In this document: one piece after another, positions 49,912-62,936 of the stretch
Layout: each line of letters starts with the position of its first letter
Numbering within the stretch: position 1 is the first letter of the stretch
Assembly (NCBI GenBank): GCA_037045265.1
Contig: JBAOHV010000004.1
Coordinates: forward strand, 186,328 to 250,327
DNA: 64,000 bases
Reading direction: 5' to 3'
DNA from: Microthrixaceae bacterium
GTDB lineage: Bacteria > Actinomycetota > Acidimicrobiia > Acidimicrobiales > Microtrichaceae
Translations under genes and position numbers: made by a program
The notes under the pieces: model-generated
Database searches by the model: none
What the model was told of the DNA's origin: nothing
Seen by the model: only the letters and a program-made list of their open reading frames with translations

Positions 49912-51540
49912 ATGGAGCTCCCATTCCTGCTGAGCGCGATGCGCCGCTACATCTGGGTGGTCGTACTGGGTGCCTTGCTGGGAGCGCTCCCCGGGATCGC
50001 GTTGGCGATGACCGCGAGCGAGTACTACGAGTCCCGGGCCGTGTTGCTGATCGCTCCACCCACCGACGCTCGCTCGTTGGCCCCCGTAGCAGCCGATCCA
50101 GATCGGTATCTCGCTGGTGAGCTGAGCGTGCTCGAGTCGTACTCCGACCAGGTCGCCGAGCAGCTCGATGACGTATCAGCCGGGGAAGTGGGAGCGTCGG
50201 TCAGCTTCGAGCAGCAGCCCGACACCGACGTCGTCGTCGTGGTGGCTCGGGCCGACAGCGCCAGGGAGGCGCAGCAGATCGCCCAGACGTACACCGACGT
50301 GTACTTCGAGGGACTCCGAGCCCAGCTGGCGAGTGTCCGCGCTCCCGAACTGGCCGAACTCGAGGCCCAGATGGCGGAGGTCCAGACACAGCTGACAGAC
50401 GTGGACGCACGGATCGAACAGGCTCTCGCCCCCTACAGGGACAGAACAGCCGTCCCCACGGTCGAACAGGTCGCACCCGCACTGGCATCCGAGAAGGAGC
50501 TCCTCGTCACCCGCTACAACGAGCTGAGCACCTCCCACAGCGAACTCGGCGCCGGCCTCCAGGCATCCAGTCGGGTGGTCCGTGACGCGACCCTGCCCAC
50601 CGAGGCGAGTGCTTCCTCGGGCAAGGCACTGGTTCTGATCGGTTCGATCGTCGGAGCGTTCTTGGGGACCGTAATCGCCGTTGCCCTCGCCCGCTTCTCA
50701 CGCAACGTGCTCGACACCGAGCAGGCCGAGGAGATCCTCGGTCAGCCCGTGGTCGGCGCCATGCCAGTTCGCCCCGAGATCGACGACGACCCGGCATCCA
50801 TGCTCGCTGCTCCGGACCAGCGGGCAGCGGGCTTCCTGTCGACGCTCGCCGTCCGTGTCGAGGCAGCAGCAGGAGCTGACGATGCTCTGAGCGTGCTGGT
50901 GGCCAGCACAGGCCCGGGTGCGGGCGCGTCCACGCTTGCCGCCTCGTTGGCACGACAGATCGCAGCATCAGGTCCTCGGGTGCTGCTCGTAGATGCCGAC
51001 CGACGACACCCCGAGATCGGCCTTCTCGCGACCCGGGGCTCACGCCGCCGTGACGGGCGCAACTTCGCCACACTCGCCCCCAACCTCCAGGTCTGCTCCC
51101 TGGGAGACCTGCTGCCGGGTACCAGTGAGCGCGACACGACCAGGATGTTCGATGCCACCGCCGTCATCTCCAAGGCGACCGCCGAGGCAGACGTCGTCAT
51201 CTTCGACGGTGGAGCGCTGATGGATTCAGCCTCGACCGTGCAGCTCAGCCGAGCCTGCAGCCTGACCGTGCTTGCGCTGGCAGAACACCTGCCGGTGAAG
51301 CAACTCGTCATCGCCGCCGAGGAGCTGTCCAACAGGCGGGTCCTGCCGGTGTGGATGCCCGAGCCGCCGTCACGTCGGCGTCGCTCGAGCAAGCCCCGAC
51401 CACCTGCACCCGTGGCCGTCAGGGAGACGCATTCATCGCCTCCCCCCGCCGCATGGTCGCCGCATGGCCGCGGCGACAGCGCGGGAGCCGCGCCCGAGGC
51501 CTCAGCTTCGCCCACCCAGGCCGGCTCGAAACGGTCCTGA
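49912..51540 (+). CDS. polysaccharide chain-length determinant (Wzz-like) fused to a degenerate BY-kinase-like P-loop domain
   Basis: N-terminal TM plus a coiled periplasmic-type region plus a second TM. C-terminal VLVASTGPGAGASTLA (Walker A without Lys), VLLVDADRRHPEIG (Walker A'), ADVVIFDGG (Walker B-like). No C-terminal Tyr cluster. Confidence 0.7.
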   Translation: MELPFLLSAMRRYIWVVVLGALLGALPGIALAMTASEYYESRAVLLIAPPTDARSLAPVAADPDRYLAGELSVLESYSDQVAEQLDDVSAGEVGASVSFEQQPDTDVVVVVARADSAREAQQIAQTYTDVYFEGLRAQLASVRAPELAELEAQMAEVQTQLTDVDARIEQALAPYRDRTAVPTVEQVAPALASEKELLVTRYNELSTSHSELGAGLQASSRVVRDATLPTEASASSGKALVLIGSIVGAFLGTVIAVALARFSRNVLDTEQAEEILGQPVVGAMPVRPEIDDDPASMLAAPDQRAAGFLSTLAVRVEAAAGADDALSVLVASTGPGAGASTLAASLARQIAASGPRVLLVDADRRHPEIGLLATRGSRRRDGRNFATLAPNLQVCSLGDLLPGTSERDTTRMFDATAVISKATAEADVVIFDGGALMDSASTVQLSRACSLTVLALAEHLPVKQLVIAAEELSNRRVLPVWMPEPPSRRRRSSKPRPPAPVAVRETHSSPPPAAWSPHGRGDSAGAAPEASASPTQAGSKRS

Positions 51541-51602: not shown

Positions 51603-54600
51603 TCAGCTGGCTGTTGCCATCCCTGAACGCGTCGCATCGTTCGACTGCACCGAGCTTTCGGCATCGGTGATAGCACTGCGGATGTGACCGGCGAGCACAC
51701 GCACCGCCGGCTCGAGGACCATCGAGTCGTGGTCCCCGGGGACCTCGGTCACCTGGACCCGCCGACAGTAGGGACCCCAACCGTTGTCGAAGTAGACGAA
51801 GCGACGGTTGATGTCGATCTGGCGGTCAGGTCCGAACACATGAGCAGGCGTGAGACGCGGCCGGTACAAGGTCACGGTGCCCTCGTAGGGACGGACGTCG
51901 TATCGCTCCAGGGCACGGTAGAACGCCGCCTCGATCACCTCCGAGTGCAACGTCGTGTCAGGTCCGACAGCAGGCCCGGCTGCGCGGCGTCGACGCTCCT
52001 TCTCCCATGCGATGCGGTTCCGGGCCCACGACCTGACATACGAGGCACCCTCCTCGCGGATGTTGTCCAGCTGGATCTTGACCCTGTCCGAAACCCTCAG
52101 CGGTGGCTGGTCCGGCAGCGGGGTGTCGAGCAGGACCAGCAGTGACGTCTCCTCACCAGCCGCACGGAGTTGCTGTGCCATCTCGAAGGCGGCGATTCCA
52201 CCACCGGAGAACCCGCCCAGCAGGTATGGCCCGTGGGGCTGCACGCTACGAAGCTCCTCCAGGTACTCCTGGGCCATCTCAACGAAGTCCTCGTGCGGCG
52301 GATCGTCGCCGAACAGACCGCGTGCCTGGATGCCGTAGAAGGGCCTGTCGGCACCGATCTGGTGTGCCAGGTGGCGCAGGTTCAACACGTTGCCGAACAT
52401 GCCCGCAACCAGGAAGAACGGGGTCCGGTCGGATCCGTCACCAGGGTGCAGCGCCACGAGGTACCGGTACCGGGGCTTTGCCGCGACAATGGACGACTCG
52501 CTCGTGAGATCTCCGTCATCGCTCGGGAGGGCTTCCGAGATCAGCTCGGCGCACGCCTCGACCGTCGGGGCTTCGACGAGGACCGAGATCGGGAAGTCGA
52601 CCGAGAAGGTCCGCTTGATCTGGGCGAAGAGGCGCACCGCTATCAGGCTGTGCCCTCCCAGGTCGAAGAAGTTGTCGCGGACACCGACCTGGTCGATGCC
52701 GAGGAGCTCCTGCCACATCACGACGAGCTGCTCCTCCACGTCGTTGCGAGCTGCGACGAACTCGGAGTCGAGCTTCGGTCGACTGAACACCGCGCTCGCT
52801 TCGCCGCCGGCGCTCGAGCCGATCTGCTCAGCCGCGATGAGGTCGCCCTGGTGTGACAGCGCCGGGAGGTCGAGCGAGGTCACGTAGACCACCGGGTCCA
52901 CATCGGGGCCGATGGTCCGGAGGAACTCCCGTCCCCCCTCGATCGGGCGGATGCCCTGGCGGAGGTTGCTCTCGAGAGCCAGCTCGGGAAGGGTCCGTTG
53001 CCGGGCGCCGGCCGATCCGTCGAAGTCGACCTCGGCCGCGAGCGCAGGACGCCCTCCGACCTCGAGACGTCCTTCCAGCCGCTTGACGGCGAACCCTTCG
53101 ACCTCGACGAGCACGCGCCCGTCACGGTCGCAGAGCAATACGTCGAACGACGCGACGCCGCTCTTCTCGGACGTTCCCGACAGCACCTCGGCGACCGCCG
53201 TCAGCTCGGACGGCAACCGATCGTGGATGCGGACCCGGCGATACTCGACCGGCACCCACAGCCGGTCACCCGTGTAGCCGGGGATGAGGTCCATGGCGAA
53301 CCCGGTGCCCAGGTCGACGAGCGCCGGATGCAGCCCCATCGACAGGTCCTCTGTGTCGTACGGGGCCTTCAACTTCAGCTCTGCCACAGCGGTTCTGTCG
53401 CCGTAGCGGACCTCGGTCACCACGTCCCAGCGAGGACCGAACCTGAGGTGGTCCTGCTGGCGGGTCCGCGTGGCGCCACGACGATCGCATCCGGCGAGGA
53501 CCCTGGCCAGCTCGACCGAGTCCGCCGGATCCAGTGGGTGCAGCAGCAGGTCCGCCTCGCCGGTGAGGCGCCAACCGACCCTGACCGAGGTCACCTCGCC
53601 CTCGCCGCCGTAGCTGGTGACCGATACGCGCTCACGGATCTCGAAGCTGTAGCCGGACTCCGTGGGCCGGAGGACCACTTCGGCGCTCACGTTCCCGTCG
53701 GCATCTACCGCCAGGGGACGCAGGAAGGTCAGATCGCGCATCTCGAACGGGCGCTCCAGTCCGAGCTCGGCGAGCGACGCTCGGGCCAGCTCCAGGTATG
53801 TCGCTCCCGCGACCACCGCGTCACCGTCGCCTGTGCGGTGCTCGTCGAGCGGCCAGGAATCGCGCTCGTTCCAGTCGATCGAGAGCCTGACCACCCCGTC
53901 TTGCGCCCTGCGCAACTCACCGAAGAAGGGATGAACCGCTTGACGCAGCTCGACGTCCTCGATGTCGCCTGACGAGTCAACCGCAGCGGCAGCTGCCGCC
54001 ATGCCGACCTCGTCCCAGACCCCCCAGTTGACGGCGCGGACGTGGCGATCGCCACGGGCACGGCGTGACTCGGCGAACGCGTTGAGGAAGGAGTTCGCAG
54101 CGACGTAGTCGACCTGTCCGATCGGAGCCGTGACGGTGCTGGTCGAGGAGAACACGACGAACAGATCGAGGTGATCGGATGCGGTCGCGGTCTCCAGTAC
54201 GAGGGTCCCGTACACCTTGGGGGCGAGGACGTCCTCCATCTGCATGGGCGACTTGGTGACCAGCAGGGCGTCGTCGATCACCCCCGCCGCGTGCACCACT
54301 CCGTTCAGGGTTCCGAACTCGCTGCGGACCCTGGCGACCGCGGAGTTGAGAGACTCCGGATCTGTCACGTCACCCTCGACCACGATGACCTCGGCGCCCT
54401 CCTCCTCGAGGCTGCGCACCCCGCGGATCCGCACTGCCGTCGGGTGATCGTTACCGAGACGACCGAGAACCTCGTCCCAGGTATCCCTCGGCGGCAGGCC
54501 ACGCCGTGCCAGCAGGGCCACGCGGGCGCCACGCTCGCGGTACAACGCTTCGGCCACGCTCAGACCGATGCCGCCCAGGCCTCCGGTGATCAGCACGACG

Positions 54601-57600
54601 CCGTGTCGGCGCAACACCGCACGATCGGGCTCCGGCAGACGGGTCCTGCGCACGTCGCGCACGTAGCGTCTGTCGCCACGGAGCGCCACCACCGAATCCT
54701 CGAGAGGTGCTCGCACTTCGGCGACCACCTCGTCGATCAGGGAGAACTCGGTGATCGCCGCCTCGGATGTCGCCGAGCGAATACGCCCCATGATCGACCC
54801 GGCCTGTCGCCGACCAACACCGACGGCATCAGCCACCTGCGCCGGGTCGAGGTCGAAGGTCGAGACGCTGACGTCGGCGAACTCCCGGGGGATCACCTGC
54901 ACGGGCCCGAGGACCGTCGCCTGCTCGGGGAACGGCACGGCGTCGGAACCGGGAACCGATTGGGAGCCCATGGTCGCCACCGAGATGGCGAGGCTCCGCT
55001 GCACGCCGGCCGAGGCCCAGGCCTGCGCCAGATAGACGAGGCTCTGGAAGCCGAGCTCCTGGTTCCGATGGAAGAAGCTGCTTCCGGGCCGGAAGTCGCG
55101 GTCGTCGGTGGCCAGCAACGAGAGGTGCGCCACCCGGTCGGGCAGCCGGTCCGTTCGCACCAGGTCCTTCACCAGGCTCTCGTAACCCGCCAGTCCGAGC
55201 TCGGGACTCAACACGTACTCGTCGTCAGACACCGCTCTGAAGAGGTCGCCCATCCGAACCACGACGACGGAGTCGCCGGTTGCACGAAGCTCGGCGACGA
55301 CCTCGTCGGCGAAGCCGGCTGCATCGGCGAGGACCAACCAACGGTTGGGGCCGTCGACGGCATCCTCACGGTCCTTGCTCTTCCAGACCGGCTTCCAGGA
55401 CCACCGATCCACGTCGCTCTCGCGGCTGACGAACGCCAGATCGTCGGATTCGGTGACCCCGGCACCTGGAGCGATGAAGAACGTCTGGGTCTGGAACGGG
55501 TACGTCGGAAGGCCCACGGTCCGGCGTCCATCGGCGGGGAACCATCGGTCGGCCTCGATGGTCGAGCCCGCCGCCCAGATCCGACCCACCGCTGTCAGAA
55601 GGGCCGCGTTGTCGTCTGTCTCCTCCTCGGGGTGACGCATCGCCGGCACGGCAACCTGGTTCGACCTGACCGCCGTGGGGTGGGCCCTCACCAGCGACGA
55701 CAGGGTCTTTCCGGGACCGACCTCGAGAAGAACCCGCGGGCCGGCGGCGGCGAGAGTCGCCACGTCGTCGGCGAAGCGGACAGTCGAGCGCAGGTGCCGG
55801 ACCCAGTACTCGGGATCCGTCGCCTGCTCCGTCGTGATCCAGGTGCCGGTGGTGTTCGACACCCAGGGGATCGTCGGCGGATGCAACTCGATACCGCGCA
55901 GGTAGTCGCCGAACTGCTCCAGGACCGGGTCCAGCAGGCGGCTGTGGACAGGAGTCGTGACCTGCACCGGCAACGGCTCGATGCCGCTCTCGCGGATCTC
56001 CTGTTCGAACAGGTCCAGGCTCGCCTGCGGACCGGAGACGACCACCACGTCGGGCGCGTTGACCACCGCCAGGTCCAGCGCCAGACGTTCGACCGCCTCG
56101 GCCACGTCGTCTGGTGTGAGCGGCACCGCCACCGCTGCTCCTTCGACGGTGTCCATCAGACGGCCACGGAGAACGACCAGACCTAGGCAGTCCTCGAAGG
56201 AGATGGTGCCTGCCACACAGGCCGCCGTGTTCTCGCCCAGGCTGTGCCCGACGAGCGCCGAAGGTTCGAGTCCCCAGCTCATCAGCAGGTGCGCGAGCGC
56301 ATGCTCGATGATGAAGATCAGCGGCAGCTGATGCGTCATGGACGCGAGTCGGGTGTCGAGCTCCGGGCTCCTGTCCTCACCCAGCAGGAGATCGGCGAGG
56401 TCCAGCTGGTGCCTGTCCCTGAGGAGGCCCAGACCGCGGTCGACCTGAGCTGCGAACGCCGGTTCGCAGCGGTGGAGATCGGCCCCCATGCCCAGATGCT
56501 GGGATCCGCCACCGGGGAACATGAACGTGAGTCCGAGTTCAGCGGTGGTGGCGGTGTGGGTCGGGAGACGACGTACGTCCGCGGAGCGCAGCAGCACGAT
56601 CGCGTCGGCGACGTCGCGCACGGCGAGGACTCTGCGCTCGTCGAAGTGGTGTCGTCCCACGAACAGCGTGCGTGCGACGTCCTCGATCGGCAGGTCGAGG
56701 TTGTCCGCCAGGTGATCGGCCAGTCGGACGCCGGCTTCGTCGAGTGCTCCCCGGCTACGCGCCGACAGTGTCAGCAGGTGCCACCGCTCAGATTCCGCTG
56801 TCCCTGGTTCGCCCGAGGGGTCGCGACGTTCTGGCTCTGCGGGGGCCTCCTCGAGGACTGCGAAGGCGTTGGTGCCACCGACACCGAGCGAGTTGACCCC
56901 GGCCCGGCGCGGTCCGTTGGAGCCGCTGGTCCATGGCGTGAGGTGGTCGTTCACCACGAAGGGGGTGTCGTCCAGCTCGAGGTTCGGGTTGGGTCGCTCG
57001 AAGTTCAGGCTCGCGGGCAGCGCACCGTGATGCAGCGACAACGCGACCTTGATCAGACCGGCGGCACCGGCGGCAGTGTCGAGGTGCCCGATGTTGGTCT
57101 TCACACTGCCGATCCGACACGAGCCGGTCACGGTGGGTCCCAGGTCGAACGCTTGGGCGAGCGCTGCGACCTCGATGGGGTCCCCCATCGGGGTGCCGGT
57201 GCCGTGGCACTCGACGTACTGGATCGAGTCCGCGTCCACATCGGACACGGCGATCGCCTCGGAGACGCATGCCGCCTGGCCGTCGACCGACGGCGCCAGG
57301 TACCCGACCTTCTGGTCGCCGTCGTTGTTGACAGCGGTTCCTTTGATCACCGCGTAGATGCGGTCACCGTCATCGAGGGCGTCGTCGAGTCTCCGGAGTG
57401 CGACCACTCCGGCGCCCGAACCGAAGACCGTTCCCTGGGAACGGTGGTCGAACGCTCGGCAGTGCCCATCCGGCGAGAGCACCTCGCCCTCGTGGTACAC
57501 GTAGCCCTGCCCGTGGGGGATCTCGATCGTCGATCCCCCGGCGAGGGCGAGGTCGCACTCACCGCTGAGCAGGTGCTGCACCGCCAGGTGGGTGGCGACC

Positions 57601-58142
57601 AGCGAGGTCGAGCACGCCGTCTGCACGTTCACGGACGGCCCACGGAGGTTCAACGAGTAGCTGGCCCTGGTTGCGAGGAAGTCCTTGTCGTTGCCCGTGT
57701 GGCGCAGGAGGAACACACCGACGTCGCGGACGAGGTCAGGGTTCGAGAGCAGGTTCCTCATGAAGTAGGACCCCATGCCGCAGCCGGCGAACACTCCGAT
57801 CGCTCCGTCGAACGACGACGGAACGTGGCCGGCGTCCTCCATGGCCTCCCAGGCGGCCATGAGGAAGTGCCGGTGCTGGGGATCCATGATCCCCGCTTCC
57901 TTGGGCGACAGCCCGAAGAAGTCGGCGTCGAAGTCGAACACGCCATCGAGTGGAGCTGCTGAACGGACGTAGTTCGGCGAGCGGAGCTCTGCCTCGCCGA
58001 CGCCTGCTTCCACGAGCTCCTGCTCGCTGAGCTCGCGGATGCTCTCGACGCCGTCGACCAGGTTGCGCCAGTAGGCAGTCGGGTTCGCTGCACCTGGTAG
58101 GTGCGCTGCGAGTCCGACGATCGCTATGTCGTTGTCAGCCAT
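51603..58142 (-). CDS. type I polyketide synthase, KS-AT-KR-DH-ACP-TE (PfaA/HglE-like KS)
   Basis: Intact 2179 aa. KS: DKDFLATRASY, VQTACSTSLVA, ECHGTGT, NIGHL. AT: GHSLGE. KR: VVLITGGLGGIG, HAAGVIDDA, VDYVAANSF. DH: HPFFGEL...LDEHRTGDGDAVVAGATYLE. Carrier: FFDLGGHSLIAVRL. TE: LLGGFSGGG. Confidence 0.9.
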   Translation of the reverse strand: MADNDIAIVGLAAHLPGAANPTAYWRNLVDGVESIRELSEQELVEAGVGEAELRSPNYVRSAAPLDGVFDFDADFFGLSPKEAGIMDPQHRHFLMAAWEAMEDAGHVPSSFDGAIGVFAGCGMGSYFMRNLLSNPDLVRDVGVFLLRHTGNDKDFLATRASYSLNLRGPSVNVQTACSTSLVATHLAVQHLLSGECDLALAGGSTIEIPHGQGYVYHEGEVLSPDGHCRAFDHRSQGTVFGSGAGVVALRRLDDALDDGDRIYAVIKGTAVNNDGDQKVGYLAPSVDGQAACVSEAIAVSDVDADSIQYVECHGTGTPMGDPIEVAALAQAFDLGPTVTGSCRIGSVKTNIGHLDTAAGAAGLIKVALSLHHGALPASLNFERPNPNLELDDTPFVVNDHLTPWTSGSNGPRRAGVNSLGVGGTNAFAVLEEAPAEPERRDPSGEPGTAESERWHLLTLSARSRGALDEAGVRLADHLADNLDLPIEDVARTLFVGRHHFDERRVLAVRDVADAIVLLRSADVRRLPTHTATTAELGLTFMFPGGGSQHLGMGADLHRCEPAFAAQVDRGLGLLRDRHQLDLADLLLGEDRSPELDTRLASMTHQLPLIFIIEHALAHLLMSWGLEPSALVGHSLGENTAACVAGTISFEDCLGLVVLRGRLMDTVEGAAVAVPLTPDDVAEAVERLALDLAVVNAPDVVVVSGPQASLDLFEQEIRESGIEPLPVQVTTPVHSRLLDPVLEQFGDYLRGIELHPPTIPWVSNTTGTWITTEQATDPEYWVRHLRSTVRFADDVATLAAAGPRVLLEVGPGKTLSSLVRAHPTAVRSNQVAVPAMRHPEEETDDNAALLTAVGRIWAAGSTIEADRWFPADGRRTVGLPTYPFQTQTFFIAPGAGVTESDDLAFVSRESDVDRWSWKPVWKSKDREDAVDGPNRWLVLADAAGFADEVVAELRATGDSVVVVRMGDLFRAVSDDEYVLSPELGLAGYESLVKDLVRTDRLPDRVAHLSLLATDDRDFRPGSSFFHRNQELGFQSLVYLAQAWASAGVQRSLAISVATMGSQSVPGSDAVPFPEQATVLGPVQVIPREFADVSVSTFDLDPAQVADAVGVGRRQAGSIMGRIRSATSEAAITEFSLIDEVVAEVRAPLEDSVVALRGDRRYVRDVRRTRLPEPDRAVLRRHGVVLITGGLGGIGLSVAEALYRERGARVALLARRGLPPRDTWDEVLGRLGNDHPTAVRIRGVRSLEEEGAEVIVVEGDVTDPESLNSAVARVRSEFGTLNGVVHAAGVIDDALLVTKSPMQMEDVLAPKVYGTLVLETATASDHLDLFVVFSSTSTVTAPIGQVDYVAANSFLNAFAESRRARGDRHVRAVNWGVWDEVGMAAAAAAVDSSGDIEDVELRQAVHPFFGELRRAQDGVVRLSIDWNERDSWPLDEHRTGDGDAVVAGATYLELARASLAELGLERPFEMRDLTFLRPLAVDADGNVSAEVVLRPTESGYSFEIRERVSVTSYGGEGEVTSVRVGWRLTGEADLLLHPLDPADSVELARVLAGCDRRGATRTRQQDHLRFGPRWDVVTEVRYGDRTAVAELKLKAPYDTEDLSMGLHPALVDLGTGFAMDLIPGYTGDRLWVPVEYRRVRIHDRLPSELTAVAEVLSGTSEKSGVASFDVLLCDRDGRVLVEVEGFAVKRLEGRLEVGGRPALAAEVDFDGSAGARQRTLPELALESNLRQGIRPIEGGREFLRTIGPDVDPVVYVTSLDLPALSHQGDLIAAEQIGSSAGGEASAVFSRPKLDSEFVAARNDVEEQLVVMWQELLGIDQVGVRDNFFDLGGHSLIAVRLFAQIKRTFSVDFPISVLVEAPTVEACAELISEALPSDDGDLTSESSIVAAKPRYRYLVALHPGDGSDRTPFFLVAGMFGNVLNLRHLAHQIGADRPFYGIQARGLFGDDPPHEDFVEMAQEYLEELRSVQPHGPYLLGGFSGGGIAAFEMAQQLRAAGEETSLLVLLDTPLPDQPPLRVSDRVKIQLDNIREEGASYVRSWARNRIAWEKERRRRAAGPAVGPDTTLHSEVIEAAFYRALERYDVRPYEGTVTLYRPRLTPAHVFGPDRQIDINRRFVYFDNGWGPYCRRVQVTEVPGDHDSMVLEPAVRVLAGHIRSAITDAESSVQSNDATRSGMATAS

Positions 58143-58181: not shown

Positions 58182-61100
58182 TCAGCTGCTGCGCACGCGC
58201 CGTCGCTGCAGGTTCTCGCGCCTGCGAGCAGCGCGGTCGGCGCTCGCCTGACGCAGCGATGCACCGCCGTCGCCCGACAGCGAGTCCGAGAACGAGCGCA
58301 CAGTCGGGTGCCGGTAGAGCTCGGTCAACGCGATGGGCCGCTCGAGCAGCTCCTTCAGCCGACGGTGCATGCGCACGATCAACAGTGAATGACCGCCGAT
58401 GTCGAAGAAGTTGTCGTCGATGCCGATTCCGCTGCGTCCGAGGGTCTCCTCCCAGACCGACAGCACCAGCCGCTCGGTCTCGTTCGACGCTTCGGCCGCC
58501 GGCGAGGCGCTGTCACGCCGCGCCAAGTCGCCGAGCGACGGCAGGGCGTTGCGGTCGATCTTGCCGTTCGGGGTGTGGGGCAGGTCCGCGAGCAGCACAA
58601 GGTGACCGGGGACCATGACGTCGGGCAGCACACTGCGCAGACGGTCCTTGAGCTCGGCGGCATCGAGGGTGGCTCCCGCCGAAGCGGACGCGTAGGCGAC
58701 GAGCTGCTGATCGCCCGGCGAGTCCTCGCGGACCGCTGCAACGCATTCGCGCACACCTGGGCAGCGCCCGAGCTGCGCCTCGATCTCGCCCAGCTCGATC
58801 CGGTAGCCACGGATCTTGACCTGGTGATCGATTCGGCCCAGGAACTCCAGGAGCCCACTTCCGTCGGCCTGTTCTCGCCAACGGGCCAGGTCACCTGTCA
58901 GGTACATGCGATGGTCACCGCCGCGGAACGGGTCGGCGACGAAGCGCTCGGCTGTGAGCTCCGGCCGTTCGTGGTAGCCGCGCACCACGCCGAGACCGCC
59001 GATCCACAGCTCGCCAGCGACACCCGGCGGAACGGGCTGGTGGTTGCGGTCCAGTATGTAGATCCGGGTGTTGGCTATCGGTGTCCCGATCGGGATGATG
59101 TTCAGATCGCCGTGCAGGGGCCACGTGGTCGACCAGATGGTCGTCTCGGTCGGACCGTACATGTTCGTGACCTTGCCGCTGAGTGAGCGGGTGCGCAGCT
59201 CGTCCGCCAGTGCGACCGGGAAGGCTTCGCCGCCGACGAACAGGTGCTCCACCGAGGCGAGCGCGTCGCGCGACTCTTCCTGCATGCTGAGCATGCGTGC
59301 CATCGACGGGGTGCACTGCATGTGGGTGACCCCGTGGCGTGTCAGCTGGGAGGCGACCGACTGGTCGAGTGCCGCCGGCTGCGCCTCGGGATCGGCCTGT
59401 GCCCCTGCCCCTGCGTTGGACTCACGTCGGATGCGGTCGAGCAACGGGAGCGAATCGAGCACCTCGTCGGTGTCGATGCCGAAGTCGATGAGACAAGCGA
59501 TCTCATCGACACCGATGCCCTTGAGCTTGTCGACGGTCTCGCGGCAGCGCTCAGGCGTTCCGAAGAGCCCTGACGTCTCGTAGTAGCGCAGGAAGGCGAA
59601 CTCGAGCACCGCGTCCATCTCGTCGTCACCCAGGTCGTGGAAGACGTCGTCGTTCAGGTCGTCTGCAGTCCGGGGAGCGGCGCCACCGGGGCGCTGGAAG
59701 GCCGGGAAGCTCCACGCGTAGTCGCGCAGCAGCGAGGCGGAGGTGCCCAGGTAGTCCTTGAGCGGACCGCGGACCTTCTCGCGAACGACATCTTCGTCCT
59801 CGCCGACGAACGTGTGAAGCATCAGGCTGACGATGCCGGCGTCGGGGTCGAACCCGGCTTCGGCACGAGCCTGACGGTAGGCCTCGATCTTCGGCGCGAG
59901 CTGCTCGATCGACTGCCCGAGCAGGTGGGTCAGCACGTTCGCACCCACCCTTCCGGCCTGGACGTAGGTGTCCGGGTTGCCGGCGGTGGTCACCCATGCC
60001 GGCACTTCCTCCTGCACCGGTCGGGGCAAGGTGCGAACCGGAACCTCGGCACCGTCGACGCCGATGAAGGTCACCGTCTCCCCCCGCCACAGACGACGCA
60101 GCTGATCGAGGCCCTCGAACATCTTGGCCTTGGCGTCCTTGTAGTTCTGCGGACGCAGCACGAAGTCGTTGGGCTGCCACCCCGACGCCACCGAGATGCC
60201 GACACGGCCGTCGGACAGGTTGTCCACGACGCTCCACGCCTCGGCCACGCGGATCGGGTGCTCCAGCGGCATGACCACGGACCCGGAGCGGATCTTGACG
60301 CGCTCGGTGATCGTCGCGATCGCCGCGCTGGTCACTGCCGGCTGCGGGTAGAGCCCACCGAAGTCGTGGAAGTGCCGCTCGGGGGTCCAAACTGCGGTGA
60401 AGTCGTGCCGGTCGGCGAATCGGGCCCCGTCGAGCAGGAGGCGATAGCGGTCCGAACCTGCACCGGTGCTCGCGTCACCGGAGAAGTAGAACAGCGAGAA
60501 GTCCATCGGCAGCTGTGGGTGCTGCTCGACGAAGATGCCCTGGTCCTCGTCGTCCTCGTCGTCATGGCGGTCACGGTCGAGGTAGACGACGACGCTGAAG
60601 CCGCGTGCCAGGGTGTAGAGGAGCTCCAGAACCGAGATGTCGAACGACAACGAGGTGACCGCGAACCAGGTCGCCGGCAGCTCGTGGGCAACCCGCTCGT
60701 CCATTCCCTCGAAGAAGTTGACGACGTTGCCGTGCTCGATGAGCACGCCTTTGGGGAGACCCGTGCTGCCCGAGGTGTAGATGCAGTAGGCCAGGTTCGA
60801 CGGCGACACGTCGACCATCGGCCTGGTCGTCGGCCGCGAAGCGATCAGCTCACGATCCTCATCGAGCGACACCACGGTGATGTGCTCGCTCACGTCGAGC
60901 GGGAGCGTGTCACGCTGGGCCGACTGCGTTAGAACGACCTCACACCCGCTGTCGTTGATCATGTGCTCGAGCCGGTTGGCTGGGTAGACGGGGTCGAGCG
61001 GCACGTAGGCACCACCGGCCTTGTGGACACCGAGCACCGCCACGACGAGGTCGATGCCACGGGTGACGTGGACTCCGACGAGGTCGTCCGGGCCGACTCC

Positions 61101-62936
61101 CAGGTCGATCAGGCTGTGGGCCAGGCGGTTCGCCCGCTCGTCGAGCTCGCGGTAGGTGATCGACCGGTCCTCGAACACGACCGCCGTCACGTCGGGAGAC
61201 GTGTCGGCGGTGGCCTCGATCAGCTGGTGGACGGTCGTCGCGGGTACCGGTCGGTCCGTGGCGTTCCAGTCCTCCAGGATGCGATGCCGGAGCTCGGTTC
61301 CCAGCAGGTCGACGTGACCCACCGGGCGAGTCGGGTCGCTCGCCAGCTCCTCGAGCACCGCCTTCAGACAGGACACGAGCAGCGCCCCGTCGGCGGCGTC
61401 GACGAGACCGGTGTCGAGCACCACCGACCAACCCGTGGCGCCCTCGACGAGCTCCGCCACGACCTCGTCGGCGGTGTCGCCCTCACCGAAGCGAACAGCA
61501 ACCGGCAGAAGCCGCCCGGCGGCGAGGTCGGGGTTGCGTGTCAGGTCCGGGTGACGGGCGATCAGCTCCTGGGCGAACGGCAACCGCCCGCGTGCGGCTG
61601 CGAGTCGATCGGCCACCCCTGACACGGCGCCGGCCAGCGACTCGGTGGGGTCGATGCTGATCTCGACGGGTGCGGAGCGTGCGAACAGACCGGCCGTGGC
61701 GCCGAGCGCACCGGCCCACGCGGCGTCGCTCACTGCGAGGTGGAACCTGTCCTTGCCCACGAGCCTGGACAGCAGCGTCGCCCATGCGCCGACCACGGCG
61801 TCGACCGCGAGTCCGTCCGGTACGTCCAGCGCCGTACGTTCGTGGCGGGCGACATGGTCGGCGGTCGGGGTCCTGGCCCAGGGCAGCTCCACGGGCTCGA
61901 GCGAGTGGAGCTGGCGCTCGTACAGGGACTCCGCTCGAGCCGCCTGCGCTGCCAGAGAAACCAGCGCCTCGCCCGTCCTCGGGTCGAGGCTCGACAGCAC
62001 GCGACCCGGCCGCAGGTCGTGGGCCTCGATCGCCTGGGTCAGGTCGAGAGCCCCACCCCTGGCGGTGGCGACCGCGGTTATGGCCAGCGCGCCCTCGCCG
62101 CATGCGACGACGACTGCATCGGGGTCGCTCGAGATGATCGTGCCGGACACACCTGCCACGTCACGCACCTCGGCAGAGACGACCGTCACCGTCCCGTCGC
62201 TGCTCGACAGGTCGCCGACGACGAGCTTGGGTGTGCACACCGTGTTCGGGTACGGACCGAAGCTCAGGGCCCGCACCAGTCGGTCGAGTTCCGCCGCGGG
62301 TCGCGAGAAGTCCAGTATGCCGAAAGCGTCGGGGCGGTCATGACGACTGAAGGTGCGCCGCTGGATCGAGGTGTCCTGGGGCCGCCCGGTGACATCACCG
62401 GAGACCAGCAGGTCGATGAGCTCCTGGAAGGAGTCGATCGCGGCCTCGAAGTTGCGCGTGTTGAGCGACAGCGAGGTCTCCTCGTCGGCCACGTCGAAGC
62501 GACGCTCGACGAGGACGTCGCCCTCATCGATGCCTGCGGTGACGAGGTGCCAGGTGATGCCGTAGGTGGGCGCGCCGTCGATCAGCGCCCACACAGGAGC
62601 GTTCAGGCCTCCGTAGGCGGGCAACAGGCCGTCGTGGAAGTTGACAGAACCCCGTTCGGGTATCGACAGGACGCTGTCGGGCAGCAGCTTCAGGTGAGTG
62701 ATGGCGAGCAGCCAGTCGAAGCTGTGCCGCGACAGCTGCTGCTCCCACTCGGCGGTGGGCCCCGACGCGTCGAACCAGGCCAGGTCCTTGGAACGAGCCC
62801 ATTCGCCGACCTTGGGGGTGCCGGCGGCGACCACGGTGACCTCGTGGCCGGCAGCCAGCAGGGCCTCTCCACACTCGACGAGCAGGCTGTCTGCACCAAC
62901 GAGTGCGCACCGGAGGCGCTGATCTGTAGTGGTCAT
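58182..62936 (-). CDS. NRPS loading module: formyltransferase domain / C-like linker / adenylation domain interrupted by a luciferase-like monooxygenase / PCP
   Basis: Intact 1584 aa. F: SVNFHDGLLPAYGGLNAPVWALIDG...GIDEGDVL. A: LAYCIYTSGSTGLPKGV, FDISVLEL | LLM insert MDFSLFYFSG...FTAVWTPERHF...LIDFG | NMYGPTETTIWST, YLTGDL, KIRGYRIELGEIE, PNGKIDR. PCP: FFDIGGHSLL. Confidence 0.9.
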   Translation of the reverse strand: MTTTDQRLRCALVGADSLLVECGEALLAAGHEVTVVAAGTPKVGEWARSKDLAWFDASGPTAEWEQQLSRHSFDWLLAITHLKLLPDSVLSIPERGSVNFHDGLLPAYGGLNAPVWALIDGAPTYGITWHLVTAGIDEGDVLVERRFDVADEETSLSLNTRNFEAAIDSFQELIDLLVSGDVTGRPQDTSIQRRTFSRHDRPDAFGILDFSRPAAELDRLVRALSFGPYPNTVCTPKLVVGDLSSSDGTVTVVSAEVRDVAGVSGTIISSDPDAVVVACGEGALAITAVATARGGALDLTQAIEAHDLRPGRVLSSLDPRTGEALVSLAAQAARAESLYERQLHSLEPVELPWARTPTADHVARHERTALDVPDGLAVDAVVGAWATLLSRLVGKDRFHLAVSDAAWAGALGATAGLFARSAPVEISIDPTESLAGAVSGVADRLAAARGRLPFAQELIARHPDLTRNPDLAAGRLLPVAVRFGEGDTADEVVAELVEGATGWSVVLDTGLVDAADGALLVSCLKAVLEELASDPTRPVGHVDLLGTELRHRILEDWNATDRPVPATTVHQLIEATADTSPDVTAVVFEDRSITYRELDERANRLAHSLIDLGVGPDDLVGVHVTRGIDLVVAVLGVHKAGGAYVPLDPVYPANRLEHMINDSGCEVVLTQSAQRDTLPLDVSEHITVVSLDEDRELIASRPTTRPMVDVSPSNLAYCIYTSGSTGLPKGVLIEHGNVVNFFEGMDERVAHELPATWFAVTSLSFDISVLELLYTLARGFSVVVYLDRDRHDDEDDEDQGIFVEQHPQLPMDFSLFYFSGDASTGAGSDRYRLLLDGARFADRHDFTAVWTPERHFHDFGGLYPQPAVTSAAIATITERVKIRSGSVVMPLEHPIRVAEAWSVVDNLSDGRVGISVASGWQPNDFVLRPQNYKDAKAKMFEGLDQLRRLWRGETVTFIGVDGAEVPVRTLPRPVQEEVPAWVTTAGNPDTYVQAGRVGANVLTHLLGQSIEQLAPKIEAYRQARAEAGFDPDAGIVSLMLHTFVGEDEDVVREKVRGPLKDYLGTSASLLRDYAWSFPAFQRPGGAAPRTADDLNDDVFHDLGDDEMDAVLEFAFLRYYETSGLFGTPERCRETVDKLKGIGVDEIACLIDFGIDTDEVLDSLPLLDRIRRESNAGAGAQADPEAQPAALDQSVASQLTRHGVTHMQCTPSMARMLSMQEESRDALASVEHLFVGGEAFPVALADELRTRSLSGKVTNMYGPTETTIWSTTWPLHGDLNIIPIGTPIANTRIYILDRNHQPVPPGVAGELWIGGLGVVRGYHERPELTAERFVADPFRGGDHRMYLTGDLARWREQADGSGLLEFLGRIDHQVKIRGYRIELGEIEAQLGRCPGVRECVAAVREDSPGDQQLVAYASASAGATLDAAELKDRLRSVLPDVMVPGHLVLLADLPHTPNGKIDRNALPSLGDLARRDSASPAAEASNETERLVLSVWEETLGRSGIGIDDNFFDIGGHSLLIVRMHRRLKELLERPIALTELYRHPTVRSFSDSLSGDGGASLRQASADRAARRRENLQRRRVRSS

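What the first reader, a model, noticed from the sequence alone, without database searches (positions are those of the whole stretch)
59412..60524. Luciferase-like monooxygenase (~370 aa) inserted inside the adenylation domain of a starter module
The A domain is split between the FDISVLEL...VVVY region and the QCTPS/NMYGPTE region. The insert begins MDFSLFYFSG...RYRLLLDGARFADRHDFTAVWTPERHF and ends ...IACLIDFGID, which is the LLM/FMN-dependent monooxygenase pattern.

A-domain-embedded LLM domains are known from terminal glycine-extending modules (myxothiazol/melithiazol type). There, alpha-hydroxylation of glycine releases a terminal amide. Combining such a domain with an N-terminal formyltransferase in a loading module is a domain order I do not recognise. 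It implies chemistry on a formyl-glycyl thioester before chain extension.
Basis: partly seen in the sequence, partly recalled or inferred. Interest (0 to 1): 0.6.

Follow-up and report, generated by a model that had tools for sequence, protein, structure and literature searches.

The report
Formyl-glycine NRPS loader with built-in hydroxylase
The gene encodes a one-module peptide synthetase that most likely loads glycine, formylates it and hydroxylates it with a flavin monooxygenase spliced into its activating domain. It is one copy of a widespread two-gene pathway, found next to sugar-polymer genes, whose product is still unknown.

Summary
One open frame (58182-62936, minus strand, 1584 aa) carries a complete luciferase-like monooxygenase (LLM; TIGR04020, 499.6 bits, cut-off 244) at residues 812-1170. 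It sits between adenylation motifs a4 and a5, where papers place the MtaG/MelG insert.

- **Signs of function:** the specificity code DILQFGMIWK is glycine-type. The F triad (N99/H101/D137) and the carrier serine are invariant in 120 homologues. The LLM is among the best-conserved parts.
- **Partner:** a KS-AT-KR-DH-ACP-TE synthase starts 39 nt downstream and accompanies the gene in every related locus with enough flanking DNA.
- **Setting:** the pair lies between Wzz-like and Wzx-like genes. The closest relative continues into GT2/WecG/GT4/Wzy genes.

The architecture is not rare. About 108 of the 150 nearest 50%-identity LLM clusters share it, across at least six phyla. They include the orphan Roseobacter NRPS/PKS/glycosyltransferase/PPTase cluster.

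Most likely chemistry (inferred): glycine is formylated and then alpha-hydroxylated on the carrier, and the PKS extends the result. No paper I found describes this domain order or a product. It is a new variant of known kinds, of moderate interest.

The parts
58182..62936 (-). Whole NRPS gene, 1584 aa: F, C-terminal lobe of C, A(a1-a4), LLM, A(a5-a10), T, basic tail
   Evidence: It is a single ORF. Domains were assigned by Pfam and NCBIfam.
62007..62936 (-). Formyltransferase domain (res 1-310), catalytic and C-terminal subdomains
   Evidence: Formyl_trans_N matches 62-163 and Formyl_trans_C matches 205-302. N99, H101 and D137 are invariant in 120 of 120 homologues. The best solved relatives are Fmt 5UAI, WbkC 5VYS and ArnA; the LgrA F domain matches only at E 3e-8.
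61257..62006 (-). Remnant of a condensation domain (res 311-560): C-terminal lobe only, no HHxxxDG
   Evidence: A profile of 16 homologues matches McyB 231-480 (E 3.9e-23), Txo2 198-474 and Txo1 194-471. None of 120 members has HHxxxD. It is the least conserved part, with 29% mean identity.
60567..61256 (-). N-terminal part of the adenylation domain, motifs a1-a4 (res 561-790)
   Evidence: AMP-binding matches 574-790. The a3 motif YTSGSTGLPKG is at 720 and the a4 motif FDISV at 765.
60504..60566 (-). Acidic, unconserved linker into the insert (res 791-811)
   Evidence: Mean identity is 11%. pLDDT is below 50 at model residues 231-243.
59427..60503 (-). Luciferase-like flavin monooxygenase inserted in the A domain (res 812-1170): the finding itself
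   Evidence: TIGR04020 scores 499.6 bits. It is 56% identical to the PuwE OX domain 6KET, E 2e-112, and the model superposes on 6KET at TM 0.90-0.92. Mean family identity is 61%, and 30% of columns are at least 95% conserved.
59352..59426 (-). Unconserved linker back into the A domain (res 1171-1195)
   Evidence: Mean identity is 24%.
58527..59351 (-). C-terminal part of the adenylation domain, motifs a5-a10 (res 1196-1470)
   Evidence: TIGR01733 matches 1186-1400 and AMP-binding_C matches 1384-1459. Motifs a5, a7, a8 and a10 are conserved. The specificity code is DILQFGMIWK.
58257..58484 (-). Thiolation (carrier) domain (res 1485-1560), GGHSL serine
   Evidence: PP-binding matches 1490-1551. 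The serine is invariant in 120 of 120.
58185..58256 (-). Arg-rich C-terminal tail (res 1561-1584), a candidate docking element for the PKS
   Evidence: The pattern RA..R.....RRR is conserved in at least 70% of 120 homologues. The function is inferred.
51603..58142 (-). Partner PKS, 2179 aa, KS-AT-KR-DH-ACP-TE, starting 39 nt after the NRPS stop
   Evidence: Domains were assigned by Pfam. All catalytic motifs are intact and conserved across phyla. It lies next to the NRPS in all related loci with enough flank.
49912..51540 (+). Wzz / chain-length-determinant-like gene, convergent on the PKS
   Evidence: Wzz and P-loop hits come from Pfam and TIGR01005. It is a conserved neighbour in L006 (81% identity) and in L001/L008, which are the same contig (50%).
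63131..64000 (+). Wzx-type polysaccharide flippase gene, divergent from the NRPS, running off the window
   Evidence: It matches Polysacc_synt. It is 90% identical to the L006 gene, which is followed there by GT2, WecG, GT2, GT4 and Wzy genes.

Best explanation
The gene encodes an intact loading module with three catalytic activities on one carrier arm.

**Shown by sequence**
- The A domain carries a glycine-type specificity code.
- The T domain has its phosphopantetheine serine.
- The N-terminal Fmt/ArnA-like formyltransferase keeps its Asn-His-Asp triad.
- A complete TIGR04020 flavin monooxygenase is spliced into the a4-a5 loop of the A domain.
- A condensation-domain C-lobe without the catalytic His motif joins F to A.

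**Inferred mechanism**
1. The A domain adenylates glycine and loads it on T.
2. F transfers formyl from N10-formyl-tetrahydrofolate, giving N-formylglycyl-S-T. This supplies the N-acyl group that an upstream C domain supplies in MtaG/MelG.
3. The LLM uses reduced FMN (from a reductase encoded elsewhere) and O2 to hydroxylate the glycine alpha-carbon, giving an N-formyl-alpha-hydroxyglycyl thioester (a carbinolamide).
4. This species, or the glyoxylyl thioester left if the carbinolamide collapses, passes to the KS of the adjacent KS-AT-KR-DH-ACP-TE synthase. The synthase adds at least one malonyl unit, reduces it, dehydrates it and releases the product.

The pair is a member of a widespread orphan NRPS-PKS family. 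Its product is probably used in, or attached to, a cell-surface glycan made by the surrounding Wzx/Wzy-type genes.
For: **Domains and boundaries**
- Assigned.
- The LLM matches TIGR04020 at 499.6 bits against a cut-off of 244.
- It is 56% identical to the solved PKS/NRPS OX domain 6KET.

**Signs that each part works**
- Glycine-type code: DILQFGMIWK here and DILQ[MFLY]GMIWK across 120 homologues. One member has exactly DILQLGLIWK. These are glycine codes by Stachelhaus rules, which I recalled rather than computed.
- The F triad is invariant in 120 of 120 and the carrier serine in 120 of 120.
- The LLM is among the most conserved parts (61% mean identity). The C remnant is the least conserved (29%).
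- The modelled A fold is intact around the insert.

**Chemical precedent**
- LLM/FMO domains at a4-a5 in MtaG/MelG, and at a8-a9 in SolF, hydroxylate the alpha-carbon of N-acylated glycyl-S-PCP (PMC10204066, PMC11411415).
- F-A-PCP loading of formylglycine is reported for conglobatin and the oxazolomycin/phthoxazolin family. Those papers surfaced (PMC4504003, PMC9057759, PMC5764310) but I did not open them, so the formylglycine detail is from my own knowledge.

**Role of the N-terminal domain**
- Sister proteins have a full C domain (HHxxxDG present) in place of F plus C-lobe, on the same A(LLM)-T core. One of them has the same PKS.
- This fits the N-terminal domain's job being to N-acylate the glycine.

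**Partner and setting**
- The PKS lies next to the NRPS in every related locus with enough flank.
- All its catalytic motifs are intact.
- Glycan context is documented.
Against: - No biochemical datum exists for any member. The substrate, the order of formylation and hydroxylation, and the fate of the carbinolamide are all inferred.
- The F domain is much closer to Fmt, sugar N-formyltransferases and ArnA than to the proven NRPS F domain of LgrA. Its folate-loop motif also departs from the canonical SLLPxxRG: it reads HDGLLPAYGG here and HDGPLPRYAG in the family consensus. Another acceptor is therefore not excluded.
- The FMN-contact residues were not mapped individually.
- No flavin reductase or PPTase gene was found beside the pair in this window.
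- The closest solved LLM (PuwE OX) is from a PKS/NRPS hybrid and, to my knowledge, acts on an acyl chain rather than on glycine.
- The glycosyltransferases next to the pair are not orthologous between Actinomycetota and Pseudomonadota. The glycan link therefore rests on gene category only.
Confidence: 0.6

Rival explanations
1. Glyoxylyl-starter generator. Formylation and hydroxylation happen as above, but the N-formyl carbinolamide collapses as in MtaG/MelG. This releases formamide and leaves glyoxylyl-S-T. The formyl group is a disposable activating group, and the PKS extends the glyoxylyl unit to a 4-oxo-2-enoyl (fumaraldehydic-acid-type) C4 product.
For: - In MtaG/MelG, the same a4-a5 LLM on a glycine module is followed by carbinolamide cleavage to an amide plus a glyoxylyl thioester (PMC10204066, PMC11411415).
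- F-type and C-type N-termini are interspersed on the A(LLM) tree: 14 Fitch changes against 19.7 for shuffled labels. The same PKS follows a C-type sister. This is easier to understand if the N-acyl group does not end up in the product.
Against: - In solanimycin B and skyllamycin the alpha-hydroxyglycine is retained (PMC10204066), so collapse is not obligatory.
- A free-amine glycyl thioester, once hydroxylated, would give the glyoxylyl unit without any F domain. Yet the F triad is invariant.
- The tree is of 50%-identity representatives with moderate support. Interspersed labels may partly reflect poor resolution.
Confidence: 0.2
2. The LLM does not act on the glycyl thioester. It acts on the PKS-bound chain after extension (alpha-hydroxylation of an acyl-S-ACP), and its place inside the A domain is only a structural accident.
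For: - The closest solved structure is the OX domain of PuwE, a PKS/NRPS hybrid, at 56% identity.
Against: - All 150 nearest LLM clusters whose context could be read keep the LLM inside a glycine-type A domain next to its own T domain.
- The only characterised a4-a5 cases act on the module's own glycyl-S-PCP (PMC10204066).
Confidence: 0.08
3. The formyltransferase-like domain does not formylate the carrier-bound glycine. It either formylates an amino sugar of the neighbouring glycan pathway or serves only as a scaffold that replaces the lost N-lobe of the condensation domain.
For: - Its best solved relatives are Fmt, the GDP-perosamine N-formyltransferase WbkC and ArnA. LgrA F is far weaker.
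- The folate-loop motif is non-canonical.
- The locus is a glycan locus.
Against: - The Asn-His-Asp triad is invariant in 120 of 120 homologues across phyla, which argues against a mere scaffold.
- The domain is always fused at the N-terminus of the A-T unit, as in proven F-A-PCP initiation modules.
- Sister proteins have a catalytic C domain at the same place, which points to N-acylation of the glycine.
Confidence: 0.08
4. The LLM insert is a decayed relic with no activity, and the module simply delivers N-formylglycine, as in oxazolomycin or conglobatin loading modules.
For: The FMN-contact residues were not mapped individually. No flavin reductase gene lies in the cluster.
Against: - The match to TIGR04020 is full length, at twice the cut-off.
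- The LLM is among the most conserved parts of the protein across at least six phyla.
- The modelled barrel is complete.
- The reading frame is intact.
Confidence: 0.03

Closest known systems
MtaG (myxothiazol) and MelG (melithiazol) terminal modules, C-A(MOx)-PCP-TE
   Same: Both have a glycine-activating A domain interrupted by a flavin monooxygenase in the loop between motifs a4 and a5. The monooxygenase hydroxylates the alpha-carbon of N-acylated glycyl-S-PCP (PMC10204066, PMC11411415). The retained C-terminal lobe of a C domain here suggests descent from a C-A(MOx)-T module of this kind.
   Different: - MtaG and MelG are the last modules of long assembly lines. They have a catalytic C domain and a cis TE, and their useful product is the released terminal amide.
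- Here the module is first in line. The C domain has lost its catalytic half, and a formyltransferase supplies the N-acyl group.
- There is no TE on this protein, and a PKS follows.
- I could not obtain the MtaG/MelG sequences, so no direct alignment was made.
Conserved Roseobacter-group NRPS / PKS / glycosyltransferase / PPTase cluster (orphan; attributed to Martens et al.)
   Same: - It belongs to the same protein family. Rhodobacterales homologues are 44-46% identical over the full length, with the same Pfam set.
- In Gemmobacter fulvus the order is GT2, PKS, GT2, NRPS, PPTase. This matches the four-gene cluster reported in 28 of 57 roseobacter genomes (PMC4337385).
- It also matches the 4527-nt NRPS plus 6333-nt T1PKS hybrid found in 18 of 37 Paracoccaceae species (PMC10584327).
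   Different: - The papers describe that cluster only at gene level, with no domain order and no product.
- The copy here is in an Acidimicrobiia (Microthrixaceae-like) genome.
- It has no adjacent PPTase or GT2 orthologues.
- It is embedded in a Wzz/Wzx/Wzy-type locus instead.
F-A-PCP initiation modules: LgrA (linear gramicidin), and OzmO/CongA-type formylglycine loaders
   Same: Both have an N-terminal formyltransferase fused to an A-PCP unit in the first module. In the oxazolomycin, conglobatin and phthoxazolin systems glycine is the formylated residue (papers surfaced but not opened; this detail is from my own knowledge).
   Different: - The F domain here is only distantly related to LgrA F (E 3e-8, against 8e-23 for Fmt).
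- It keeps the Fmt/ArnA-type C-terminal subdomain.
- It is separated from A by half a condensation domain.
- The A domain carries a monooxygenase.
SolF (solanimycin) glycine module with an FMO domain
   Same: Both have a glycine A domain carrying a flavin monooxygenase that makes alpha-hydroxyglycine. In SolF the residue is retained and extended further (PMC10204066). This is the precedent for carbinolamide retention.
   Different: The SolF insert lies between a8 and a9, not a4 and a5. SolF is an internal elongation module with a C domain and has no F domain.
PuwE OX domain, PDB 6KET ('flavin-utilizing monooxygenase domain of hybrid PKS/NRPS')
   Same: It is the closest solved structure: 56% sequence identity over the whole LLM and TM 0.90-0.92 to the model. 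It belongs to the same TIGR04020 subfamily.
   Different: It is a discrete domain of a PKS/NRPS hybrid and is not embedded in an A domain. To my knowledge it acts on an acyl chain rather than on glycine.

Membership tests
TIGR04020 (MupA/Atu3671 natural-product FMN-dependent LLM) | Score above the curated cut-off over the full model | tested here: met
   It scores 499.6 bits against a cut-off of 244.45, covering profile 1-341 of 341 and residues 813-1170.
TIGR04020 (MupA/Atu3671 natural-product FMN-dependent LLM) | Complete TIM-barrel LLM fold | tested here: met
   The AF2 model superposes on 6KET at TM 0.90-0.92 and rmsd 3.4-3.8 A over 361 columns.
TIGR04020 (MupA/Atu3671 natural-product FMN-dependent LLM) | Flavin-contact and catalytic residues present | tested here: inconclusive
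   - Individual FMN contacts were not mapped because no ligand-bound reference was available to me.
- Indirect support: 30% of LLM columns are at least 95% conserved in 120 homologues, including ERHFH, SGW and TAGNP.
- The domain is 56% identical to 6KET.
MOx-interrupted adenylation domain of the MtaG/MelG type | Monooxygenase inserted between A-domain motifs a4 and a5 | tested here: met
   The a4 motif FDISV is at 765, the LLM at 812-1170 and the a5 motif NMYGPTE at 1258. The position for MtaG/MelG is taken from PMC10204066.
MOx-interrupted adenylation domain of the MtaG/MelG type | Glycine-specific A domain | tested here: met
   The code is DILQFGMIWK. The family shows DILQ[MFLY]GMIWK, including one exact DILQLGLIWK. 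Assignment to glycine rests on Stachelhaus rules recalled from memory. No predictor was run.
MtaG/MelG terminal amide-forming module (C-A(MOx)-PCP-TE) | Catalytic condensation domain (HHxxxDG) upstream of the A domain | tested here: not met
   Only the C-terminal lobe is present. None of 120 family members has HHxxxD, whereas the C-type sisters L014 and L019 have it.
MtaG/MelG terminal amide-forming module (C-A(MOx)-PCP-TE) | Thioesterase in cis, last module of the line | tested here: not met
   The protein ends about 24 residues after the T domain. A PKS follows 39 nt downstream.
F-A-PCP formylating initiation module (LgrA type) | N-terminal formyltransferase with the Asn-His-Asp catalytic triad | tested here: met
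   Formyl_trans_N matches 62-163. N99, H101 and D137 are invariant in 120 of 120.
F-A-PCP formylating initiation module (LgrA type) | F domain homologous to LgrA F and joined directly to the A domain | tested here: not met
   LgrA F matches only at E 3e-8 over residues 68-170, against 8e-23 for Fmt. A 250-residue C-lobe remnant separates F from A.
F-A-PCP formylating initiation module (LgrA type) | Formylation of the carrier-bound amino acid from N10-formyl-THF | not testable with these tools
   This needs an in vitro assay.
Roseobacter-type orphan NRPS-PKS pair | Full-length homology of the NRPS with the same domain set | tested here: met
   Identity to Rhodobacterales proteins is 44-46% over 97-100% of the length, with identical Pfam sets.
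Roseobacter-type orphan NRPS-PKS pair | Adjacent KS-AT-KR-DH-ACP-TE partner | tested here: met
   The partner is shown. Its KS is 63-94% identical to the partners in 17 related loci, and its motifs are conserved.
Roseobacter-type orphan NRPS-PKS pair | Adjacent GT2 glycosyltransferase and PPTase genes | tested here: not met
   The window has no homologue of the proteobacterial GT2 or PPTase genes. The closest relative has non-orthologous GT2, WecG, GT4 and Wzy genes instead.

The most novel reading that the evidence does not exclude
The F plus LLM pair turns glycine into an alpha-oxidised two-carbon starter (an N-formyl carbinolamide or a glyoxylyl thioester). The one-module PKS converts this into a reactive C4 enoyl unit, such as a 4-oxo-2-enoate or a gamma-substituted butenolide. 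That unit primes, caps or decorates a Wzx/Wzy-made cell-surface polysaccharide. This would be a role for NRPS-PKS chemistry in glycan assembly that is conserved in at least six bacterial phyla and has never been described.
Probability: 0.2. Interest if true: 0.8.

Novelty: new variant of a known kind. Interest (0 to 1): 0.5.

Why it matters
Two tailoring devices known separately are combined here in one loading module. One is the formylating initiation module. The other is the MOx-interrupted glycine A domain. The combined module still carries the stump of the condensation domain it replaced, which makes it a clear natural example of how NRPS modules are rebuilt by domain swapping.

The family is very large and crosses phyla. 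It is the commonest 'unknown' hybrid cluster in marine Roseobacter and Paracoccaceae genomes, and its product has been unidentified for nearly two decades. A concrete, testable proposal for the first steps, together with the repeated link to glycan genes, gives a starting point for finding that product. The points to test are glycine loading, then N-formylation, then alpha-hydroxylation, and whether the carbinolamide is kept or collapses.

For this window alone, the gene is an ordinary, intact member of that family.

Tried and rejected
- **Literature.** Nine full-text searches found no paper that describes an F-A(LLM)-T domain order or a product for this cluster. Absence from this library is not proof of absence.
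- **MtaG/MelG/CtaG sequences.** None was reachable with the tools, so the insert was not aligned or placed on a tree with them. Their insertion point is taken from PMC10204066.
- **Own genome.** The rest of the genome could not be searched for a PPTase, a flavin reductase or further cluster genes.
- **C-lobe in single-sequence Pfam.** Pfam on the window's own 311-560 linker gave nothing. Only 3 of 16 homologues hit PF00668. The C-lobe assignment rests on the profile search and on the single-sequence Txo1 match.
- **Monophyly of F-type proteins.** I expected them to form one clade derived once from C-type ancestors. This was not supported: labels are interspersed, with 14 changes against 19.7 for shuffled labels.
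- **Glycosyltransferase orthology.** I expected the neighbouring glycosyltransferases to be orthologous across phyla. They are within Pseudomonadota (37-64% identity) but not between those and the actinobacterial locus.
- **Other insert types.** A methyltransferase, ketoreductase or nitroreductase-type Ox insert was rejected. The only families matching 812-1170 are LLMs.
- **Stachelhaus code.** The positions were placed by motif alignment and my recalled GrsA numbering, not by a predictor.
Full report
**What is there**

The interval given (59412-60524) lies inside a single uninterrupted minus-strand ORF, 58182-62936, of 1584 aa. Pfam finds these domains:
- Formyl_trans_N at 62-163 and Formyl_trans_C at 205-302;
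- AMP-binding in two pieces, with Bac_luciferase at 812-1145 between them;
- AMP-binding_C at 1384-1459;
- PP-binding at 1490-1551.

It matches residues 813-1170 over its whole length at 499.6 bits (cut-off 244.45; E 4.3e-150).

The insert follows the a4 motif (FDISV, 765-769). It precedes QCTPS (1207) and the a5 motif NMYGPTE (1258). Poorly conserved, partly acidic linkers flank it.

An AlphaFold2 model of residues 561-1560 was built on 40 homologues and has mean pLDDT 83.7. It shows:
- a complete A domain that superposes on whole A domains (1AMU TM 0.85, 8WWW 0.86);
- the LLM as a separate barrel that superposes on 6KET, the flavin-utilising OX domain of the PuwE PKS/NRPS hybrid (TM 0.90-0.92).

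The LLM is 56% identical in sequence to 6KET.

Residues 311-560, between F and A, are not a plain linker.
- The single sequence aligns to residues 252-457 of the Txo1 C-A structure.
- A profile of 16 homologues matches the C-terminal halves of solved condensation domains: McyB 231-480 (E 3.9e-23), Txo2 198-474 and Txo1 194-471.
- The catalytic HHxxxDG motif belongs to the missing N-terminal half. None of 120 family members has HHxxxD in the first 620 residues. Two sister proteins with a full C domain have it at positions 142 and 159.

The real order is therefore F, C-lobe remnant, A(a1-a4), LLM, A(a5-a10), T. The remnant is the least conserved part of the protein, at 29% mean identity with 2% of columns at least 95% conserved. 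This fits a structural rather than a catalytic role.

**Are the parts functional?**

I aligned 120 full-length homologues.
- The formyltransferase triad (N99, H101, D137) is invariant.
- A-domain motifs a3, a4, a5, a7, a8 and a10 are conserved.
- The carrier serine (GGHSL) is invariant.
- The LLM is among the most conserved parts, at 61% mean identity with 30% of columns at least 95% conserved.

The ten specificity-code positions read DILQFGMIWK. Across the family they read DILQ[MFLY]GMIWK, with one member exactly DILQLGLIWK. By the established Stachelhaus rules these are glycine codes. I placed the positions by motif and recalled numbering, not with a predictor.

The F domain is closest to Met-tRNA formyltransferase (5UAI, E 8e-23), the sugar N-formyltransferase WbkC and ArnA. 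It is only weakly similar to the proven NRPS F domain of LgrA (E 3e-8). This looks like an independent recruitment of a formyltransferase. Its folate-loop motif is non-canonical.

**Surroundings**

A 2179-aa KS-AT-KR-DH-ACP-TE synthase starts 39 nt downstream (51603-58142). All its catalytic motifs are intact and conserved across phyla. The exception is the DH motif in this window, which has Ala where relatives have the Pro of HxxxGxxxxP.

The pair is flanked by a Wzz/chain-length-determinant-like gene (49912-51540, convergent) and a Wzx-type flippase gene (63131 onward, divergent). Beyond the Wzz-like gene lie housekeeping genes: tilS, hpt, folE and folP.

The closest relative is a Microthrixaceae MAG with 87% NRPS identity, which places the window in Acidimicrobiia. 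It has the same Wzz, PKS, NRPS and Wzx order. Past the flippase it continues into GT2, WecG/TagA-type, GT2, DUF1996, GT4 and Wzy-like genes. Together these make a full Wzx/Wzy-type glycan locus.

**How common it is**

The word-indexed search returned 408 proteins. The 120 listed are all 1494-1618 aa. Nearly all carry the same Pfam set, although Formyl_trans_C or AMP-binding_C is missing from some rows. They come from Acidimicrobiales, a 'Deltaproteobacteria' MAG, Microvirga, Hydrogenophaga, Devosia and many Rhodobacterales.

The exhaustive search with the LLM alone found 2024 50%-identity clusters at E no greater than 1e-30. Of the 150 nearest:
- about 108 have the F-type architecture;
- about 21 have a full C domain instead;
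- in every case where the context is readable, the LLM sits between the same two halves of the A domain.

The species-level genome scan adds Planctomycetota, Holophagae, Longimicrobiales and Ignavibacteriaceae.

In every related locus with enough flanking DNA the same PKS is adjacent, with KS identity of 63-94%. Glycan genes are also frequent neighbours:
- Gemmobacter: GT2, PKS, GT2, NRPS, PPTase;
- Microvirga: Bac_transf, WecG, PPTase, NRPS, PKS, GT2, GT2;
- Hydrogenophaga: WecG, GT2, PKS, GT2, NRPS, PPTase, GT1.

The GT2 genes are orthologous among the Pseudomonadota but not with the actinobacterial ones. Across phyla the glycan link is therefore one of gene category, not of conserved genes.

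The Gemmobacter arrangement matches the conserved Roseobacter NRPS, PKS, glycosyltransferase and PPTase cluster. That cluster was reported in 28 of 57 genomes with its product uncharacterised (PMC4337385). A 2023 survey found a 4527-nt NRPS plus 6333-nt T1PKS hybrid in 18 of 37 Paracoccaceae species, with no MIBiG match (PMC10584327).

**Mechanism**

Literature precedent supports alpha-hydroxylation as the chemistry of LLM/FMO domains in glycine modules.
- In MtaG/MelG the domain sits between a4 and a5. It hydroxylates N-acyl-glycyl-S-PCP, after which the carbinolamide breaks into a terminal amide and a glyoxylyl thioester.
- In SolF (a8-a9) the alpha-hydroxyglycine is kept and extended (PMC10204066, PMC11411415).

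Those LLM substrates are N-acylated. Here the catalytic half of the C domain is gone and a formyltransferase stands in its place. Sister proteins keep a full C domain on the same A(LLM)-T core, and one of them has the same PKS.

The simplest reading is that F supplies the smallest possible N-acyl group. The proposed sequence is:
1. Glycine is loaded on the carrier.
2. Glycine is N-formylated.
3. The alpha-carbon is hydroxylated.
4. The product is handed to the KS.

All four steps are inferred.

Whether the carbinolamide is retained or collapses to glyoxylyl-S-T plus formamide cannot be decided here. F-type and C-type N-termini are interspersed on the A(LLM) tree, with 14 changes against 19.7 for shuffled labels. 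This mildly favours a disposable N-acyl group. The invariant F triad and the SolF precedent favour retention.

Either route, after one KS-AT-KR-DH cycle, predicts a small alpha-oxidised C4 enoyl product. The TE could hydrolyse it, lactonise it or transfer it.

**Comparison and verdict**

- The insert is a member of TIGR04020 and of the a4-a5 MOx-interrupted glycine A-domain type.
- The module is not an MtaG-type termination module, because it has no catalytic C domain and no TE.
- It is not an LgrA-type F-A-PCP module in the strict sense, because the F domain is distant and a C-lobe intervenes.
- It is a member of the orphan Roseobacter-type NRPS-PKS family, placed here in an actinobacterial glycan locus.

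The main correction is that the architecture is abundant rather than singular. I rate it a new variant of known kinds, of moderate interest. The puzzle is real, but it belongs to the whole family and not to this window.

Notes from earlier agents on other genomes, read after my own analysis, reach the same picture. They are not independent evidence.

Noticed in passing
window 58185-58256 (-), residues 1561-1584: The NRPS ends in an Arg-rich tail (RA..R.....RRR) conserved in at least 70% of 120 homologues. The partner PKS begins directly with its KS. The tail could be a docking element for the PKS.
   Followed up: partly
L014:8732-13114 and L019:8571-12941: Sister proteins from Chromatiaceae and Acidobacteriota MAGs have a full condensation domain (HHxxxDG present) in place of F plus C-lobe, on the same A(LLM)-T core. 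In L019 the same KS-AT-KR-DH-ACP-TE PKS follows.
   Followed up: partly
proteins P0261, P0141, P0245, P0139/P0153/P0196/P0200: Variant architectures exist:
- F-A(LLM)-T fused to a further C-A-T module (P0261);
- F followed by a full C domain (P0141);
- C followed by F (P0245);
- members whose C-terminal A half is hit twice, suggesting a second insert near a8-a9.
   Followed up: no
window 51603-58142 (-), PKS residues about 1434-1445: The DH active-site motif reads HRTGDGDAVVAG in this window. The six full-length relatives from other loci (L001 to L005 and L016) and the C-type partner (L019) have the canonical Pro (…ALLPG). This is a lineage-specific Pro-to-Ala change in an otherwise intact DH.
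   Followed up: partly
PKS KS domain, window about 56793-58142 (-), compared with L001-L020 and L046: The KS of the partner PKS is 63-94% identical across phyla. It is clearly more conserved than the NRPS (40-87%), which hints at a tightly constrained substrate.
   Followed up: partly
L001:14861-21434: In an Actinomycetota MAG (68% NRPS identity) the partner PKS is split into two genes: KS alone, then AT-KR-DH-ACP-TE.
   Followed up: no
L016:10996-16707 (Limimaricola): The longest ORF for the NRPS is 1903 aa, with the F domain starting near residue 437. This leaves about 330 extra N-terminal residues that overlap the end of the PKS gene. It may be a real extension or only an upstream start codon.
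   Followed up: no
window 49912-51540 (+), L001:22141-23829, L006:21416-23041: The Wzz-like gene convergent on the PKS is a conserved neighbour in two other actinobacterial contigs, at 50% and 81% identity. In the record behind L001 it carries no Pfam hit.
   Followed up: partly
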